A stretch of DNA of 24,000 nucleotides from an uncultured Chloroflexia bacterium (GTDB lineage Bacteria > Chloroflexota > Anaerolineae > CG2-30-64-16): the NCBI GenBank assembly GCA_963774265.1, contig CAVZDU010000002.1:663694-687693 (forward strand), in the 5' to 3' direction. This document shows positions 1,972-13,800 of the stretch, piece after piece (within the stretch, counting starts at the first letter, position 1; the number at the start of each line of letters is the position of its first letter). The notes under the pieces are model-generated. The model saw only the letters and a program-made list of their open reading frames with translations. It did no database searches and was not told where the DNA came from. Made by a program: the position numbers and the translations under genes.

Positions 1972-2082
1972 AACTTGACCTCCAGCAGACAGACACAGTT
2001 GACGCAACTCGGTTTTGCCGCGGTAGGCGCAGGTTTCACTGCCGGTGCGTGCTCGTTGCTGCAACATGAAATCGCCCTGCGA
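1972..2082 (-). repeat. 111-bp repeat, left copy (inverted relative to 13690..13800)
   Basis: The reverse complement of 1972..2082 matches 13690..13800 with 3 mismatches in 111 by direct comparison. The ISAs1 element starts 8 bp from its inner edge. Confidence 0.9.
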
Positions 2083-2089
2083 AGTTATC

Positions 2090-3353
2090 AGGGCCATTCA
2101 GTTCTCGGACAAGCGTAGTGTTTTGGGCTGAGCAGGCTTGAAATCAAGGGCAAGGAAGGCAGAGTATCGCCTCATCAGAAAAGAAACCACAGCCGAGGTG
2201 ATGCTATGCCTGCGCCGATTATTCCCTTGATCGAAGTTCTTGTCGAGATTCCCGACTTCCGAAAGAGCCGGGGGAAGCGTCACACACTGTCTGCCATCCT
2301 GGCCTTGGCTTGTGCCGCGACGCTCTGCGGCGCTCGCAGCTACAGTGCGATGGCCGAGTGGGGCCGGAACTACGGTCCAGCCCTGGCACAAGCCTTGGGT
2401 TTCCGCCATGCCAAGACGCCTTGCGCTGCGACGTTGCACAGCGTGTTTCGCCAGTTGAATGTTGAGCTATTCGAAAGCAAGTTGCGCCAATGGGCTGAAT
2501 GCGTCTTGACCGCCTACCCATGCCGTCAGAATCAAGACGAGGCCATTGCCATTGACGGCAAGACCCTGCGCGGCAGCCAGAAACAAGGGGCGCCAGGCAC
2601 GCATTTGCTTTCAGCACTCAGCCATCGGCTGGGTCTGACACTGACGCAGCAGGCGGTTGACGACAAAACGACTGAAATGTTCGCCATTGAGGATCTCTTG
2701 GATGCCCTGGTGCTCAAGGGGCGGGTCGTCACCGTCGACGCACTGCACACCCAGCGCTTCACCGCCCAGACGATCCTCGATTGGGAGGCGGACTATGTCA
2801 TGATCGTCAAAAACAACCACCCGGAGATGCTGGCCGATATCCGGCTCTTGTTTCAAGAACTGGCGGTCGTGGCTGACACGGTGACCCGGGCGGAGTCAGT
2901 GACGGCCGGTCACGGCCGCATCGAGTGCCGCCAACTGATTGCCAGCACGGCGTTGGCTGATTATCTGCATTGGCCGGGTTTACAGCAGGTCTTCCGTTTG
3001 GAGCGTACCGTCACCATCAAAAAGACCGGCAAACAGCGTCACGAAGTCGTCTACGGTATGACCAGTCTCGCCGCCGATAAGGCGGATGCTACCAGAGTGT
3101 TGCGCCTTGTACGCCAACATTGGTCCATCGAAAACCAATCGCATTGGGTACGGGATGTCACCTTTGATGAAGATCGGTCGCAAGTGCGCTGTGGTTCCAT
3201 CCCGCAAACGATGGCCGCTTTGCGCAACGCCGCCATCGGCCTGCTGCGTCTGACAGGACACACTAACATCGCTGCGGCCACCCGTCGATTTGCAGCTCAA
3301 CCCTGGGCCGCGGTTGCCTTACTCGGCATCAAGTGCGAAAACTGAATGGCCCT
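2090..3353 (+). mobile_element. ISAs1-family insertion sequence (1264 bp)
   Basis: Imperfect terminal inverted repeats agggccattcagttctcggacaag (2090..2113) and caagtgcgaaaactgaatggccct (3330..3353), 20 of 24 matching. They enclose a single transposase ORF. No flanking direct repeat is visible. Confidence 0.8.
2206..3345 (+). CDS. ISAs1-family DDE transposase (H-repeat-associated type)
   Basis: 379-aa ORF. The N-terminus LVEIPDFRKSRGKRHTLSAILALACAATLCGARSY is the typical ISAs1 DDE_Tnp_1_assoc signature. The C-terminal HWSIENQSHWVRDVTFDEDRS motif is also present. Confidence 0.9.
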   Translation: MPAPIIPLIEVLVEIPDFRKSRGKRHTLSAILALACAATLCGARSYSAMAEWGRNYGPALAQALGFRHAKTPCAATLHSVFRQLNVELFESKLRQWAECVLTAYPCRQNQDEAIAIDGKTLRGSQKQGAPGTHLLSALSHRLGLTLTQQAVDDKTTEMFAIEDLLDALVLKGRVVTVDALHTQRFTAQTILDWEADYVMIVKNNHPEMLADIRLLFQELAVVADTVTRAESVTAGHGRIECRQLIASTALADYLHWPGLQQVFRLERTVTIKKTGKQRHEVVYGMTSLAADKADATRVLRLVRQHWSIENQSHWVRDVTFDEDRSQVRCGSIPQTMAALRNAAIGLLRLTGHTNIAAATRRFAAQPWAAVALLGIKCEN

Positions 3354-3590
3354 GGCGTATGACATAACTCATATTGACGGTTACGGATCGTTGTCTATAA
3401 TGCAGATGGCCTCGTCTCCACTCGACGGCGCGTTTTGCGGGCCGCTGGCTGATGTCATATGGCACCATGTCGCAGTCTTCGACTGGGGAGGAGAAGCTGG
3501 TCCGTCGAGACCAGTGGCGGCAAGGACAAAGTGGGCTAAAAAATCCGCGGCTATCGAATGAAGAACTTCACTCTGCGCAAGGAGGGGAAA

Positions 3591-4925
3591 ATGAAACTCG
3601 ACCTAAGATCATGGGGGATCGTTCTCGTAGTGATTGCATGTCTTCTGTCTAGTGCAGCCTGCCAAGGCCAACCGGCCGTGAATATCAACTCAGGCCCTAG
3701 CCCCACTCCCAGTTTCGCAAACTCGCCGGAAGGTGCTGTCAGGGCGATGCTTAACACGATCGAGCAACAGGATGCTAATCGCTATCTGGATGCGATTGAC
3801 CCGATGCTCCGCGCAGAGCCGAACTATTTCTTCAAGGACGCCTTGATAAAGGGCATCCAATCCTACCTGGGCTTGCAGGGAGTTGGTGACCTTAGTCGGG
3901 TTGCCTTCCGAGAGGTTGAGCTCAAGACTCGGAGTAGTAGCGACAATCTGGCCGTTGTCGATGCATCAGGGAAGGTCCGAAACCTCGCAGTGGCAACAGA
4001 AACTGCCTTTGCGGGAGAGTTTTATGTCAGAAGGGTCGATGGAATCTGGTACGTTTCTGACCCCGGCACTGTCGCCCCGTCGACAGTTGAGGCGCCCCAA
4101 GGCGCCGTCTGGAAACTCATTCCAATCTCGATTGAAGCCGAACCTCGTGCGAATGGTTTTCTCGGCTACCATGTAGTTCTCATGCTGGAGAACCAGGGCA
4201 GCAAAGGAGAACGGGCGGAAATCGACACGGGTGCTGGCATTTTGGAGACTGAGGAGGGTTTCACCTACCCAGTCGATTCGCTGCGCTACTCATCCACTCT
4301 AATCCCTCCTGGGTTTCGAGTGAGAGGCGATTGGGGCGAGTACGCTTCGGGTACGATGGAACTGTGGTTCAAAGCCGTGGAAAAGGCTCATCCGACCAAG
4401 GTGGTGCTGGAAGACCATAGCACGGTCGACATCGGAGGAGTGCTCAAGACCAGTCCAAGTGGGAGCGGGCGCAGTTGGGGCGGTGTAGGGATTGCCGACC
4501 TACGGCGGCTGTCATTTCCGACAAGTCGACCGAATAGCGACTTTCTGGACACAGGCTTGGCGGTCCAAGTCCTGCCAGACGCAAAGGTAACATTCAAGAA
4601 TGCACGACGCGCAGGCGTCAGTTCCATGGGTCTTAGCGGACATGCTGAGGGCCTAATTGTGGATGTCGAGTTCCAGAATGAGAACCAGGGGTACGCCAGG
4701 GATGTCAACGCCTCGTGCGTTCTGTTCGATGGCCTTGGTCTGACTCGCACTAGTCTGGTTAGCGCCTCCACTGGGGCTGGACCGGGTCAAACAGTCACAA
4801 CACAGATAGGCTACTACTTCGGAGATTGCGACGACGATGAGGAGAGGCTGAAGGCTGCTCTGACTAGGGCCAAACTTGTTTGCAGCGGCGATTTCGAGGC
4901 GATTGTCAACATCGAGGTCCGCTAG
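3591..4925 (+). CDS. Putative secreted lipoprotein, function unknown
   Basis: The ORF opens at 3558, but the ATG at 3591 follows AAGGAGGGG. The N-terminus MKLDLRSWGIVLVVIACLLSSAAC looks like a signal peptide plus lipobox-like Cys. The gene is AT-richer than the window and lies between two IS elements. Confidence 0.75.
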   Translation: MKLDLRSWGIVLVVIACLLSSAACQGQPAVNINSGPSPTPSFANSPEGAVRAMLNTIEQQDANRYLDAIDPMLRAEPNYFFKDALIKGIQSYLGLQGVGDLSRVAFREVELKTRSSSDNLAVVDASGKVRNLAVATETAFAGEFYVRRVDGIWYVSDPGTVAPSTVEAPQGAVWKLIPISIEAEPRANGFLGYHVVLMLENQGSKGERAEIDTGAGILETEEGFTYPVDSLRYSSTLIPPGFRVRGDWGEYASGTMELWFKAVEKAHPTKVVLEDHSTVDIGGVLKTSPSGSGRSWGGVGIADLRRLSFPTSRPNSDFLDTGLAVQVLPDAKVTFKNARRAGVSSMGLSGHAEGLIVDVEFQNENQGYARDVNASCVLFDGLGLTRTSLVSASTGAGPGQTVTTQIGYYFGDCDDDEERLKAALTRAKLVCSGDFEAIVNIEVR

Positions 4926-5039
4926 CCCGTTCTGCCACTCCTGGTGTCGTGTCGCGATTAGGGAGTTGCGGCCAGCGGTTGCAAGCCTTTAGACCTGTCT
5001 GTGCAGAAAGGCGTGCTTTCTTCCCCTAATGAAATAAGG

Positions 5040-5140
5040 GATTCATGGGGCGCGGCTCGGACGCGAACACTCCCGGAGCGACGGATGGTCGATAGGACCA
5101 CAACCTACCGCCCGAGAGCAGCGCGAGCCGCCCCATAATC
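5040..5140. repeat. Imperfect long-stem inverted repeat downstream of the IS91-family transposase
   Basis: gattcatggggcgcggctcg (5040..5059) pairs with cgagccgccccataatc (5124..5140). The arms match apart from small gaps and are separated by a ~64-nt loop. Confidence 0.6.
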
Positions 5141-13088: not shown

Positions 13089-13149
13089 CCTTTTCCTCCT
13101 TCAAAGCGAGAGGGAGCGCATGGGTGTGCCCCCTCGGCCATGCCCGCGG

Positions 13150-13605
13150 CTACGCCGCGCAGCAATTGTTCGCCAACTTCTCGACGGTTGCCGTCAGCCG
13201 ATCCAGCATTCCCACGATGGCGGTTTGTTCGCTCTCAGAGTAGCCGGTAAAGGCCTCCGACAGAAGCTGCCGCTTACTTTGCTGCACACGTTCGGCGGTG
13301 GCCTGACCCTGGGCGCTGAGCGCCACCCGGACGATCCGGCGATCCTCGGGGGCCGGCCGGCGTTCCACCAGCCCTTTTTCGACGAGCGCATCCGCCATGC
13401 GGGTCATCGTCGTGCCATGCAGTCGCATCGCCGCGGCAAAGTCATTCATCGTTAGTGCACCAGCCTCCTGCAAGGTCAACAAGGCGTAGGCCTGCGACAC
13501 GGTGAGGTCACAGCACGTCACGAGGGCACGGTCGCAACACTCGAGGTTGCGCTGCAACCGGCGCGTCAGACGATCCAACTGGTCGAGCATGATTTCTTCG
13601 GGCAT
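13150..13605 (-). CDS. MarR-family winged-helix regulator with three vicinal cysteine pairs
   Basis: 151 aa. MarR-like wHTH region LTMNDFAAAMRLHGTTMTRMADALVEKGLVERRPAPEDRRIVRVALSAQG. CC pairs occur at ECC, TCC and the C-terminal NCCAA. It ends 61 nt upstream of hgcA on the same strand. Confidence 0.9.
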   Translation of the reverse strand: MPEEIMLDQLDRLTRRLQRNLECCDRALVTCCDLTVSQAYALLTLQEAGALTMNDFAAAMRLHGTTMTRMADALVEKGLVERRPAPEDRRIVRVALSAQGQATAERVQQSKRQLLSEAFTGYSESEQTAIVGMLDRLTATVEKLANNCCAA

Positions 13606-13643
13606 GGACGGGCACCTGCCTTATATATATGTATATTACAGAT

Positions 13644-13672
13644 AGTGTAACTCACATACAAGGAGTTGTCAA
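13644..13672 (-). promoter_or_regulatory. Candidate promoter of the marR-hgcAB unit (TTGACA, 17 nt, TACACT)
   Basis: On the minus strand the -35 TTGACA is at 13667..13672 and the -10 TACACT at 13644..13649, with a 17-nt spacer. The inverted repeat TTACA-gatag-TGTAA (13636..13650) overlaps the -10. Confidence 0.55.
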
Positions 13673-13689
13673 GAACACGCAGTTCTCTC

Positions 13690-13800
13690 TCGCAGGGCGA
13701 CTTCATGTTGCAGCAACGAGCACGCACCGGCAGTCAAACCTGCGCCTACGGCGGCAAAACCGAGTTGCGTCAACTGTGTCTGTCTGCTGGAGGTCAAGTT
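13690..13800 (+). repeat. 111-bp repeat, right copy
   Basis: Matches the reverse complement of 1972..2082 at 108 of 111 positions. Confidence 0.9.

What the first reader, a model, noticed from the sequence alone, without database searches (positions are those of the whole stretch)
1972..13800. 111-bp inverted repeats bracket the 11.6-kb IS / integrase / hgcAB segment
1972..2082 and 13690..13800 are reverse complements with 3 mismatches in 111. Between them lie everything mobile-looking or patchily distributed in this window. That includes the ISAs1 element, an orphan lipoprotein, the IS91 element, a second integrase, two small membrane proteins, the radical SAM pseudogene, hgcAB and marR. hgcAB is known for a patchy, HGT-like distribution. 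A segment bounded by long inverted repeats could be a composite mobile unit, an invertible segment, or the product of a duplication of a regulatory region. The ISAs1 element sits 8 bp from the inner edge of the left copy. Weak residual similarity between 3354..3400 and 13640..13689 suggests it may have truncated a longer repeat.
Basis: seen in the sequence. Interest (0 to 1): 0.65.

Follow-up and report, generated by a model that had tools for sequence, protein, structure and literature searches.

The report
Inverted 111-bp duplication beside hgcAB
Two near-identical 111-bp copies of a non-coding segment really do flank the mercury-methylation genes in opposite orientation, but they look like a locally duplicated promoter-upstream piece in a heavily rearranged region, not the ends of a transposon that carries hgcAB.

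Summary
The repeat is real: 1972-2082 and 13690-13800 are reverse complements, 108 of 111 bases, with sharp edges.

The mobile-unit reading is not supported:
- There is no target duplication at the outer edges.
- The arms contain no IS, no internal terminal repeats, no fold and no detectable coding signal.
- A further IS lies outside the bracket.
- Six related marR-hgcAB loci sit in other contexts and lack the 111-mer. The closest one loses homology exactly at the inner edge of the right arm.

The ISAs1 has no 10-bp duplication at its own right end. Its left-flank 10-mer, GCGAAGTTAT, recurs once, at 10140, overlapping a near-consensus promoter. So 2089-10139 is probably a later 8-kb insertion.

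Without that insertion, each arm lies 5 or 17 bp upstream of an inward-facing sigma-70 promoter, one for the radical SAM pseudogene and one for marR-hgcAB. The original bracket would then be about 3.5 kb. Each arm carries two GTTG-N3-CAAC palindromes.

Best reading: a recent inverted duplication of a promoter-upstream segment, possibly an operator. Copy number in the source genome could not be checked. Interest is modest.

The parts
1972..2082 (+). Left copy of the 111-bp segment ('d')
13690..13800 (-). Right copy of d, in inverted orientation. It differs from the left copy at 3 positions.
   Evidence: Its inner edge (13689/13690) is exactly where homology to the closest relative, L013, ends.
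1998..2008 (.). Palindrome GTTGACGCAAC, site 1 in left d. Its counterpart in right d is 13764-13774.
   Evidence: 5 matches in the window against 0.32 expected, 4 of them inside the two arms
2055..2065 (.). Palindrome GTTGCTGCAAC, site 2 in left d. Its counterpart in right d is 13707-13717.
2070..2079 (+). AATCGCCCTG at the inner end of d, matching 9 of 10 bases of the ISAs1 terminal repeat AATGGCCCTG
   Evidence: There is no wider similarity between d and the IS.
2079..2088 (+). GCGAAGTTAT, the 10-mer abutting the ISAs1 left end; proposed left copy of a target duplication
2089..3354 (+). ISAs1-family IS: 22-bp terminal repeats starting CAGGG, transposase at 2206-3345. No 10-bp duplication at its own right end.
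   Evidence: Family traits from PMC11946415.
2089..10139 (.). Proposed 8.05-kb inserted block. Contents: ISAs1; lipoprotein gene 3558-4925 with promoter 3374-3401; IS91 Y2 transposase 5518-6534 and integrase 6528-7400; integrase 7419-8528; DUF6326 8681-9094; 192-aa ORF 9363-9941.
   Evidence: This is an inference from the 10-bp repeat.
10140..10149 (+). Second and only other exact copy of GCGAAGTTAT; proposed right copy of the target duplication
10149..10177 (+). Promoter-like site P1, TTGACA-17-TACAAT (11 of 12), pointing into the radical SAM pseudogene
10184..10243 (+). 60-nt fragment X', repeated at 11662-11721. It is a piece of the C-terminus of a Meth_synt_2 gene.
10264..11550 (+). Radical SAM / DUF4070 gene broken across frames (pseudogene or indel errors)
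11786..12070 (-). hgcB
12070..13088 (-). hgcA, with a 1-nt deletion in a G-run near 12984 relative to five relatives. The open frame as listed runs 12070-12996.
13150..13605 (-). marR-family regulator, first gene of the marR-hgcA-hgcB module
13644..13672 (-). Promoter-like site P2, TTGACA-17-TACACT, conserved in all relatives. Its -35 hexamer starts 17 bp from the inner edge of right d.
13846..16700 (-). Secreted 633-aa-type gene just outside the right arm, split by an IS5-family element (15231-16170, target duplication TTAG)

Best explanation
The two arms are copies of one 111-bp non-coding segment (d). It was duplicated in inverted orientation, recently (3 differences), during the local rearrangements that built this locus. 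The arms are not transposon termini.

The present 11.6-kb spacing is secondary. An 8.05-kb block led by the ISAs1 element (2089-10139) was inserted next to the left copy and duplicated the 10-bp target GCGAAGTTAT.

Before that insertion the layout was:
d - 5 bp - P1 -> (Meth_synt_2 fragment, radical SAM pseudogene) ... hgcB-hgcA-marR <- P2 - 17 bp - d.
That is about 3.5 kb of two convergent units. Each unit has d in the same polarity just upstream of a near-consensus sigma-70 promoter.

d carries two 11-bp palindromes (GTTG-N3-CAAC) 57 bp apart. The most likely function is therefore a shared upstream operator or activator site for a dimeric DNA-binding protein. As a by-product, the pair is a substrate for RecA-mediated inversion.

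Shown:
- the repeat itself and its sharp edges;
- its absence from relatives;
- the break in homology at its inner edge;
- the 10-bp repeat;
- the promoter-like sites;
- the excess of palindromes.

Inferred:
- the insertion history;
- the way the duplication arose (for example an inversion with staggered breaks, or template switching);
- any regulatory role.
For: 1. The repeat is real and its edges are sharp.
2. Six related loci carry the module in different neighbourhoods: marR-hgcAB in L001, L002, L003, L013 and L015, and hgcAB without marR in L014. None has the 111-mer.
3. In four relatives DNA homology to the window stops at the -35 hexamer (13672). In the closest, L013, it stops at 13689, the base next to the arm. 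The inner edge is therefore a true junction.
4. The ISAs1 lacks the family's 10-bp direct repeat at its own ends. Its left-flank 10-mer occurs once more, at 10140-10149, on the same strand. From base composition I estimate about 0.012 chance occurrences on that strand. PMC11946415 gives CAGGG-initiated terminal repeats and a 10-bp direct repeat for this family.
5. That 10-mer overlaps promoter-like site P1, TTGACA-17-TACAAT. P2, TTGACA-17-TACACT, lies 17 bp from the right arm.
6. GTTG-N3-CAAC occurs 5 times in the window against 0.32 expected, and 4 of the 5 lie in the two arms. It is absent upstream of marR in relatives.
7. The region carries other rearrangement scars: the 60-nt direct repeat of a Meth_synt_2 fragment, a broken radical SAM gene, an IS-split neighbouring gene and a frameshifted hgcA.
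Against: - A dispersed repeat family therefore cannot be excluded.
- The 10-bp repeat is one observation, found after looking.
- The right end of the proposed 8-kb block resembles the ISAs1 terminal repeat only weakly (8 of 22, my reading).
- No protein is known to bind GTTG-N3-CAAC here. The half-sites lie closer together than in typical MarR-family operators (from memory).
- The distances from d to the two promoters differ by 12 bp.
- d is not conserved in any relative, so there is no evolutionary evidence of function.
- No native single-copy context of d was found. The left neighbour is an ORFan, and the right neighbour's ortholog has a different downstream region.
Confidence: 0.45

Rival explanations
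1. d belongs to a short dispersed repeat family of this genome, possibly derived from the end of an ISAs1-type element. Two copies lie here by chance or because the repeat attracts insertions. The ISAs1 then landed next to an end-like motif in d.
For: - Both edges of both copies are sharp and adjoin unrelated DNA.
- The last 10 nt of d before 'CGA' match the ISAs1 terminal repeat at 9 of 10 positions, and the IS begins 9 bp further on, head to tail.
- About 1.85 such matches are expected in the whole window, so this position is unlikely by chance.
Against: - There are only two copies in 24 kb, and none in about 113 kb of related loci.
- Exact 22-24-mers from d gave no hit in GTDB genomes, JGI metagenomes or IMG/VR. 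The gapped two-palindrome pattern found only unrelated sequences.
- d has no internal terminal inverted repeats and no flanking duplication.
- Folding is no better than shuffled sequence, z about 0 to 1.
- There is no DNA or frameshift-tolerant protein similarity to the rest of the resident IS.
Confidence: 0.25
2. The arms are the terminal inverted repeats of a composite or non-autonomous mobile cassette that moves hgcAB between genomes.
For: - Long inverted repeats bracket marR-hgcAB together with IS and integrase genes.
- The marR-hgcAB module lies in a different context in every relative.
- hgcAB is thought to spread by horizontal transfer (PMC7438021).
Against: - There is no target duplication at the outer edges: no shared 7-mer, and the abutting bases differ.
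- The outer ends resemble no IS end in the window. The only IS-like motif faces inward.
- The arms encode nothing detectable.
- The module shared with relatives ends inside the arms, at 13672 or 13689, and its boundaries differ between pairs of relatives. What is conserved is marR-hgcAB itself, not a d-bounded unit.
- No second instance was found anywhere.
Confidence: 0.07
3. The bracket is a programmed invertible segment, flipped by one of the internal tyrosine recombinases acting on sites within the arms.
For: - Two tyrosine recombinase genes lie inside.
- Each arm carries two short palindromes.
- Inverted repeats are the required geometry for inversion.
Against: - All three promoter-like sites lie inside the bracket and would move with their genes. 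No promoter-like site or coding sequence spans an arm. Inversion would therefore change little beyond read-through from the neighbouring gene.
- One recombinase belongs to the IS91-type unit. Both lie in the block inferred to have been inserted later.
- The palindromes have 4-5-bp arms and a 1-3-bp centre. From memory, tyrosine recombinase core sites have 9-13-bp arms and a 6-8-bp spacer.
Confidence: 0.05
4. The repeat is an assembly artefact.
For: Frameshifts in hgcA (in a G-run) and in the radical SAM gene suggest an indel-prone, probably long-read, assembly.
Against: - The copies differ by three substitutions.
- Each is embedded in unique, gene-bearing flanks whose homology to relatives runs up to or close to the arms.
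- A collapsed or chimeric repeat would not look like this.
Confidence: 0.03

Closest known systems
Regulator-hgcA-hgcB modules in unrelated neighbourhoods (McDaniel et al. 2020, PMC7438021)
   Same: A transcriptional regulator lies immediately upstream of hgcAB. The three-gene module is conserved at 86-92% DNA identity in five relatives (hgcAB alone in L014), while the flanks differ.
   Different: Here the regulator is a MarR-family protein. In this genome alone, a 111-bp segment abuts the module's promoter and is repeated in inverted orientation a few kb away.
Inverted duplications at inversion breakpoints, as in the staggered-break model described for Drosophila inversions (from memory, not checked here)
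   Same: A short unique segment is present once at each end of a segment, in inverted orientation, with sharp edges and no transposon features.
   Different: No ancestral, uninverted arrangement is available to show that an inversion happened. The mechanism is not established for bacteria in this context.
IS-driven transposition units that use a surrogate right end, such as ISEcp1 or IS1247a 'transposable modules' (IS1380 family). The Szuplewska & Bartosik 2009 title appears in the reference list seen; the mechanism is from memory.
   Same: An IS plus several kb of DNA downstream of its transposase gene is flanked as a whole by a direct repeat of the length typical for that IS (10 bp), while the IS's own right end lacks it.
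   Different: The IS belongs to the ISAs1 family, for which I know of no such report. The proposed surrogate end matches the true end poorly. The evidence is a single 10-bp repeat.
Composite transposons with inverted IS copies (Tn10/Tn5 type)
   Same: Inverted repeats bracket cargo genes. The inner end of each arm has an IS-end-like motif.
   Different: The arms are 111 bp with no transposase gene and no IS-like outer end, and there is no flanking target duplication.
Paired palindromic operators of winged-helix repressors, for example MexR sites GTTGA-N5-TCAAC (from memory)
   Same: Two GTTG...CAAC palindromes lie in one upstream region next to a marR-family gene.
   Different: The spacer is 3 nt rather than 5, so the half-sites are closer. 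The sites lie upstream of the -35 hexamer rather than over the promoter. The promoter region conserved in relatives carries a different palindrome, TGTA-N3-TACA (my reading of the sequence). Binding is untested.

Membership tests
Transposon bounded by terminal inverted repeats / composite transposon | Direct target-site duplication immediately outside both ends | tested here: not met
   The outer flanks are ...GGCTTCCGC| and |TTGCTCGTA.... No shared 7-mer lies within about 75-100 bp.
Transposon bounded by terminal inverted repeats / composite transposon | Arms are IS copies, or carry transposase-binding ends at the outer tips | tested here: not met
   The arms have no ORF with homologs. No IS-end match lies at the outer tips. 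The only ISAs1-like 10-mer faces inward.
Transposon bounded by terminal inverted repeats / composite transposon | The same unit found in other contexts, or an empty site | tested here: not met
   Exact 22-24-mers and a gapped pattern gave no true match in GTDB genomes, JGI metagenomes, IMG/VR or PLSDB. The source genome itself was not searchable.
Programmed invertible DNA switch | Inverted repeats flank the segment, with a recombinase gene nearby | tested here: inconclusive
   The repeats are present. Two tyrosine recombinases lie inside, but within IS91-type or later-inserted DNA.
Programmed invertible DNA switch | Inversion reconnects a promoter or an alternative coding end | tested here: not met
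   The promoter-like sites at 3374-3401, 10149-10177 and 13644-13672 all lie inside the bracket. None lies in or across an arm.
Programmed invertible DNA switch | Both orientations present in the population | not testable with these tools
   No reads are available.
MITE / REP-like dispersed repeat | Internal terminal inverted repeats or a stable hairpin | tested here: not met
   Fold z-scores were 0.07 to 1.0 on either strand. The two ends of d are not complementary.
MITE / REP-like dispersed repeat | Many copies per genome | not testable with these tools
   There are two copies in 24 kb and none in about 113 kb of relatives' loci.
Recombinase-in-trio (RIT) element (definition from memory) | Three adjacent co-oriented tyrosine recombinase genes between long inverted repeats | tested here: not met
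   There are only two recombinase genes. They are divergent, and one is paired with an IS91 Y2 transposase.
ISAs1-family insertion sequence (element 2089-3354) | DDE transposase; 14-22-bp terminal repeats starting CAGGG | tested here: met
   DDE_Tnp_1_assoc plus DDE_Tnp_1 domains. The 22-bp repeats read CAGGGCCATTCAG.... Criteria from PMC11946415.
ISAs1-family insertion sequence (element 2089-3354) | 10-bp direct repeat at the insertion site | tested here: not met
   The flanks are GCGAAGTTAT and GCGTATGACA. The matching 10-mer lies 6.8 kb downstream, at 10140.
Known structured RNA or tRNA-derived attachment site | Match to an Rfam family or a tRNA gene | tested here: not met
   No Rfam match in either arm, at gathering score or at E<=1. 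No tRNA gene in the window.

The most novel reading that the evidence does not exclude
The 111-bp segment is a portable cis element with two linked roles. First, it is an operator module with paired GTTG-N3-CAAC sites that can be copied in front of promoters. Second, its ISAs1-end-like tip recruits ISAs1 transposition. One such event delivered an 8-kb ISAs1-driven unit (IS plus 6.8 kb of captured genes) next to hgcAB. Together these would make the marR-hgcAB region an exchangeable, invertible cassette, and would give a concrete route for hgcAB mobility.
Probability: 0.08. Interest if true: 0.65.

Novelty: new member of a known kind. Interest (0 to 1): 0.3.

Why it matters
How hgcAB spreads between lineages is an open question, so a transposon-like unit carrying it would be noteworthy. 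The evidence here points the other way. What is conserved and relocated among relatives is only the 1.9-2.0-kb marR-hgcA-hgcB module with its own promoter, and no defined mobile ends were found. The 111-bp arms are peculiar to this genome.

Three useful points come out of the analysis:
- The apparent 11.6-kb 'island' is probably a 3.5-kb bracket inflated by one IS-led insertion.
- hgcA in this genome may be inactive because of a frameshift.
- The paired palindromes next to the marR promoter are a testable candidate operator.

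Tried and rejected
- Structured RNA: no Rfam hit at gathering score or at E<=1. Folding energies were no better than shuffles.
- Coding fragment: one frame is open through both copies and looks vaguely like a Tat or lipoprotein signal. It gave no Pfam hit, only a non-significant NCBIfam hit (E 0.12), and no hit among 1.84 billion representative proteins.
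- Remnant of the resident ISAs1's 3' end: only the last 10-17 nt resemble it. A frameshift-tolerant alignment to the transposase C-terminus scored below the shuffle mean.
- Diverged homolog of the marR upstream region in relatives: alignment scores were at shuffle level, z from -1.0 to 0.7.
- Longer repeat truncated by the IS: not significant.
- Finding the source genome or extra copies: exact look-ups of four window proteins found nothing on record. Both scans of the genome collection, both scans of the metagenome collection and two viral scans gave no true match. PLSDB gave no match.
- Native context on the left: the 209-aa neighbour has no homolog at all.
- Native context on the right: the ortholog in L004 has a different downstream gene.
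- Attachment-site-like repeats at the ends of 3355-10139, and tRNA genes: none.
- Other ISAs1 ends in the window: none.

Full report
**Observation**

The window contains one outstanding inverted repeat: 1972-2082 against 13690-13800, 111 nt, 108 of 111 complementary, 11,607 nt apart. The next longest inverted pair is 35 nt at 71%.

Aligning the extended flanks, with the ISAs1 removed on the left, returns exactly these 111 nt. So the repeat, called d below, is real, sharp-edged and not part of a longer decayed repeat.

**Gene content**

| Coordinates (strand) | Feature |
|---|---|
| 2206-3345 (+) | ISAs1-type transposase, between 22-bp terminal repeats at 2089-2110 and 3333-3354 |
| 3558-4925 (+) | 455-aa lipoprotein without Pfam domains |
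| 5518-6534 (-) | IS91 Y2 transposase |
| 6528-7400 (-) | Tyrosine recombinase paired with the IS91 transposase |
| 7419-8528 (+) | Second tyrosine recombinase |
| 8681-9094 (+) | DUF6326 protein |
| about 10264-11550 (+) | Radical SAM / DUF4070 fragments in shifting frames |
| 11786-12070 (-) | hgcB |
| 12070-12996 (-) | hgcA |
| 13150-13605 (-) | marR |

Contrary to the finding, mobile DNA also lies outside the bracket. An IS5-family element (15231-16170, target duplication TTAG) splits a gene that is intact, at 633 aa, in a relative.

**What d is not**

- Not a known RNA. No Rfam family matches either arm at gathering score or at E<=1. There are no tRNA genes. Neither strand folds better than shuffled sequence.
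- Not detectably coding. One frame is open through both copies. It has no Pfam hit, only a non-significant NCBIfam hit, and no hit among 1.84 billion representative proteins.
- Not a MITE-like element. Its two ends are not complementary to each other, and neither copy has a flanking duplication.
- Not a transposon terminus by the usual signs. The outer flanks of the whole bracket show no target duplication.

**Comparison with relatives**

HgcA homologs at 86-94% identity led to six related loci: L001, L002, L003, L013, L014 and L015.

- Five of them (all but L014) carry the same marR-hgcA-hgcB module at 86-92% DNA identity. L014 retains hgcAB with a truncated hgcA and has lost marR. The neighbourhoods around the module differ.
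- None contains the 111-mer.
- In four relatives, homology to the window stops at 13672. This is the first base of the -35 hexamer of the marR promoter-like site TTGACA-17-TACACT.
- In the closest relative, L013, homology continues 17 bp further and stops at 13689, the base adjoining the arm. Upstream of that point L013 has an unrelated small ORF.
- The relatives' upstream regions show no significant similarity to d.

So d is not part of the conserved module, and its inner edge is a genuine junction. This agrees with published work: a regulator-hgcAB unit recurs in otherwise unrelated neighbourhoods (PMC7438021).

**The wider search for d**

- Exact 22-24-mers from d found nothing in GTDB genomes, JGI metagenomes or IMG/VR.
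- A gapped pattern requiring both palindromes found eight sequences, all with unrelated interiors, which is the number expected by chance.
- PLSDB had no match.
- The source contig (909,551 bp) could not be retrieved. The copy number of d in its own genome therefore remains unknown. This is the main gap.
- The left neighbour, a 209-aa protein, has no homolog anywhere.
- The right neighbour's ortholog in L004 is followed by a different gene.
- No native single-copy context for d was found.

**The ISAs1 element and the true size of the bracket**

ISAs1-family elements have terminal repeats starting CAGGG and make a 10-bp direct repeat (PMC11946415). The element here has the right ends, but its flanks are GCGAAGTTAT on the left and GCGTATGACA on the right.

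The left 10-mer occurs exactly once more in the window, on the same strand, at 10140-10149. From base composition I estimate about 0.012 chance occurrences. It overlaps the -35 hexamer of a near-consensus promoter-like site, TTGACA-17-TACAAT at 10149-10177, which points into the radical SAM pseudogene.

The simplest reading is that 2089-10139 (8.05 kb) entered as one unit and duplicated this target. The block holds the IS, the lipoprotein gene, the IS91/recombinase genes, the second recombinase and two small ORFs. This resembles IS-driven units that use a surrogate right end. It is an inference from one repeat, and the putative right end matches the true terminal repeat poorly.

If the reading is right, d originally lay 5 bp upstream of P1, just as the other copy lies 17 bp upstream of P2. 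The bracket was then about 3.5 kb of two convergent transcription units.

**Features inside d**

- GTTG-N3-CAAC occurs five times in the window against 0.32 expected. Four of the five are the two sites in each arm, 57 bp apart.
- The motif is absent from the marR upstream regions of relatives.
- The three differences between the copies fall outside the palindromes. That is not informative on its own; I estimate it would happen by chance about half the time.
- The last 10 nt of d before its final CGA (AATCGCCCTG) match the ISAs1 terminal repeat at 9 of 10 positions, 9 bp before the IS begins.
- This could mean the IS was attracted to an end-like motif, or that d descends from an IS end. No wider similarity supports the second idea.

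**Interpretation**

I rank a local inverted duplication of a promoter-upstream segment first (0.45). It fits the following:

- the sharp edges;
- the junction at the inner edge;
- the absence of d from relatives;
- the same polarity next to two inward-facing promoters;
- the many other scars in this stretch.

Those scars include a 60-nt direct repeat of a Meth_synt_2 fragment around the radical SAM pseudogene and an IS-split neighbouring gene. hgcA also has a 1-nt deletion in a G-run relative to five relatives.

A role as a shared operator is plausible from the paired palindromes, but it is untested.

The rivals rank as follows:

| Rival | Confidence | Main point |
|---|---|---|
| Dispersed repeat family | 0.25 | Cannot be excluded without the source genome |
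| Transposon termini | 0.07 | Fails the target-duplication, IS-arm and second-instance tests |
| Programmed invertible switch | 0.05 | All promoter-like sites lie inside the bracket, so flipping would change little |
| Assembly artefact | 0.03 | The copies differ by substitutions and sit in unique flanks |

**Caveat on the assembly**

The frameshifts in hgcA and in the radical SAM gene may be homopolymer errors of a long-read assembly rather than real pseudogenes. This does not affect the repeat itself.

**Verdict**

This is a real but ordinary kind of feature: an inverted segmental duplication in a rearrangement-prone hgcAB neighbourhood. It has a testable but unproven regulatory reading. There is no support for the idea that it delimits a mobile hgcAB unit.

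Noticed in passing
window 12970-13090: hgcA has a 1-nt deletion in a G-run (near 12984) relative to five relatives. The first 31 codons are therefore out of frame, and the open frame is 308 aa against 337-339 aa. This is either a real pseudogene or a homopolymer assembly error.
   Followed up: partly
window 15227-16174: An IS5-family element (DUF4096 plus DDE_Tnp_1, 15231-16170, target duplication TTAG) splits a secreted protein gene. The gene is intact, at 633 aa, in relative L004. The element lies outside the 111-bp arms.
   Followed up: yes
window 10184-10243 and 11662-11721: A 60-nt direct repeat (98% identity) flanks the radical SAM pseudogene. It is a fragment of the C-terminus of a Meth_synt_2 gene that follows hgcB in L013 and L002. 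Further remnants of that gene lie at 11604-11766.
   Followed up: partly
window 16760-16821, 19479-19785, 21959-22291: Upstream regions of up to about 300 nt recur three times at 71-88% identity, ahead of genes for secreted or unknown proteins. They include a shared promoter-like stretch. No Rfam match.
   Followed up: partly
L014 8853-9940 versus L001 9341-10223: In one relative, marR and the 5' end of hgcA are replaced by an unrelated 322-aa ORF, while both flanks stay collinear with L001. This is another disruption of the hgcAB module in this clade.
   Followed up: no
window 27-1720: A 209-aa protein with no homolog in 5.8 billion sequences sits next to a trypsin-like peptidase gene, immediately left of the left arm. 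The pair's function is unknown.
   Followed up: no
window 13640-13672 and relatives: The marR promoter region is almost invariant across relatives. It contains the palindromes TGTA-N3-TACA and TGTA-N7-TACA over the -10 and start region, which is a likely autoregulatory MarR operator.
   Followed up: no
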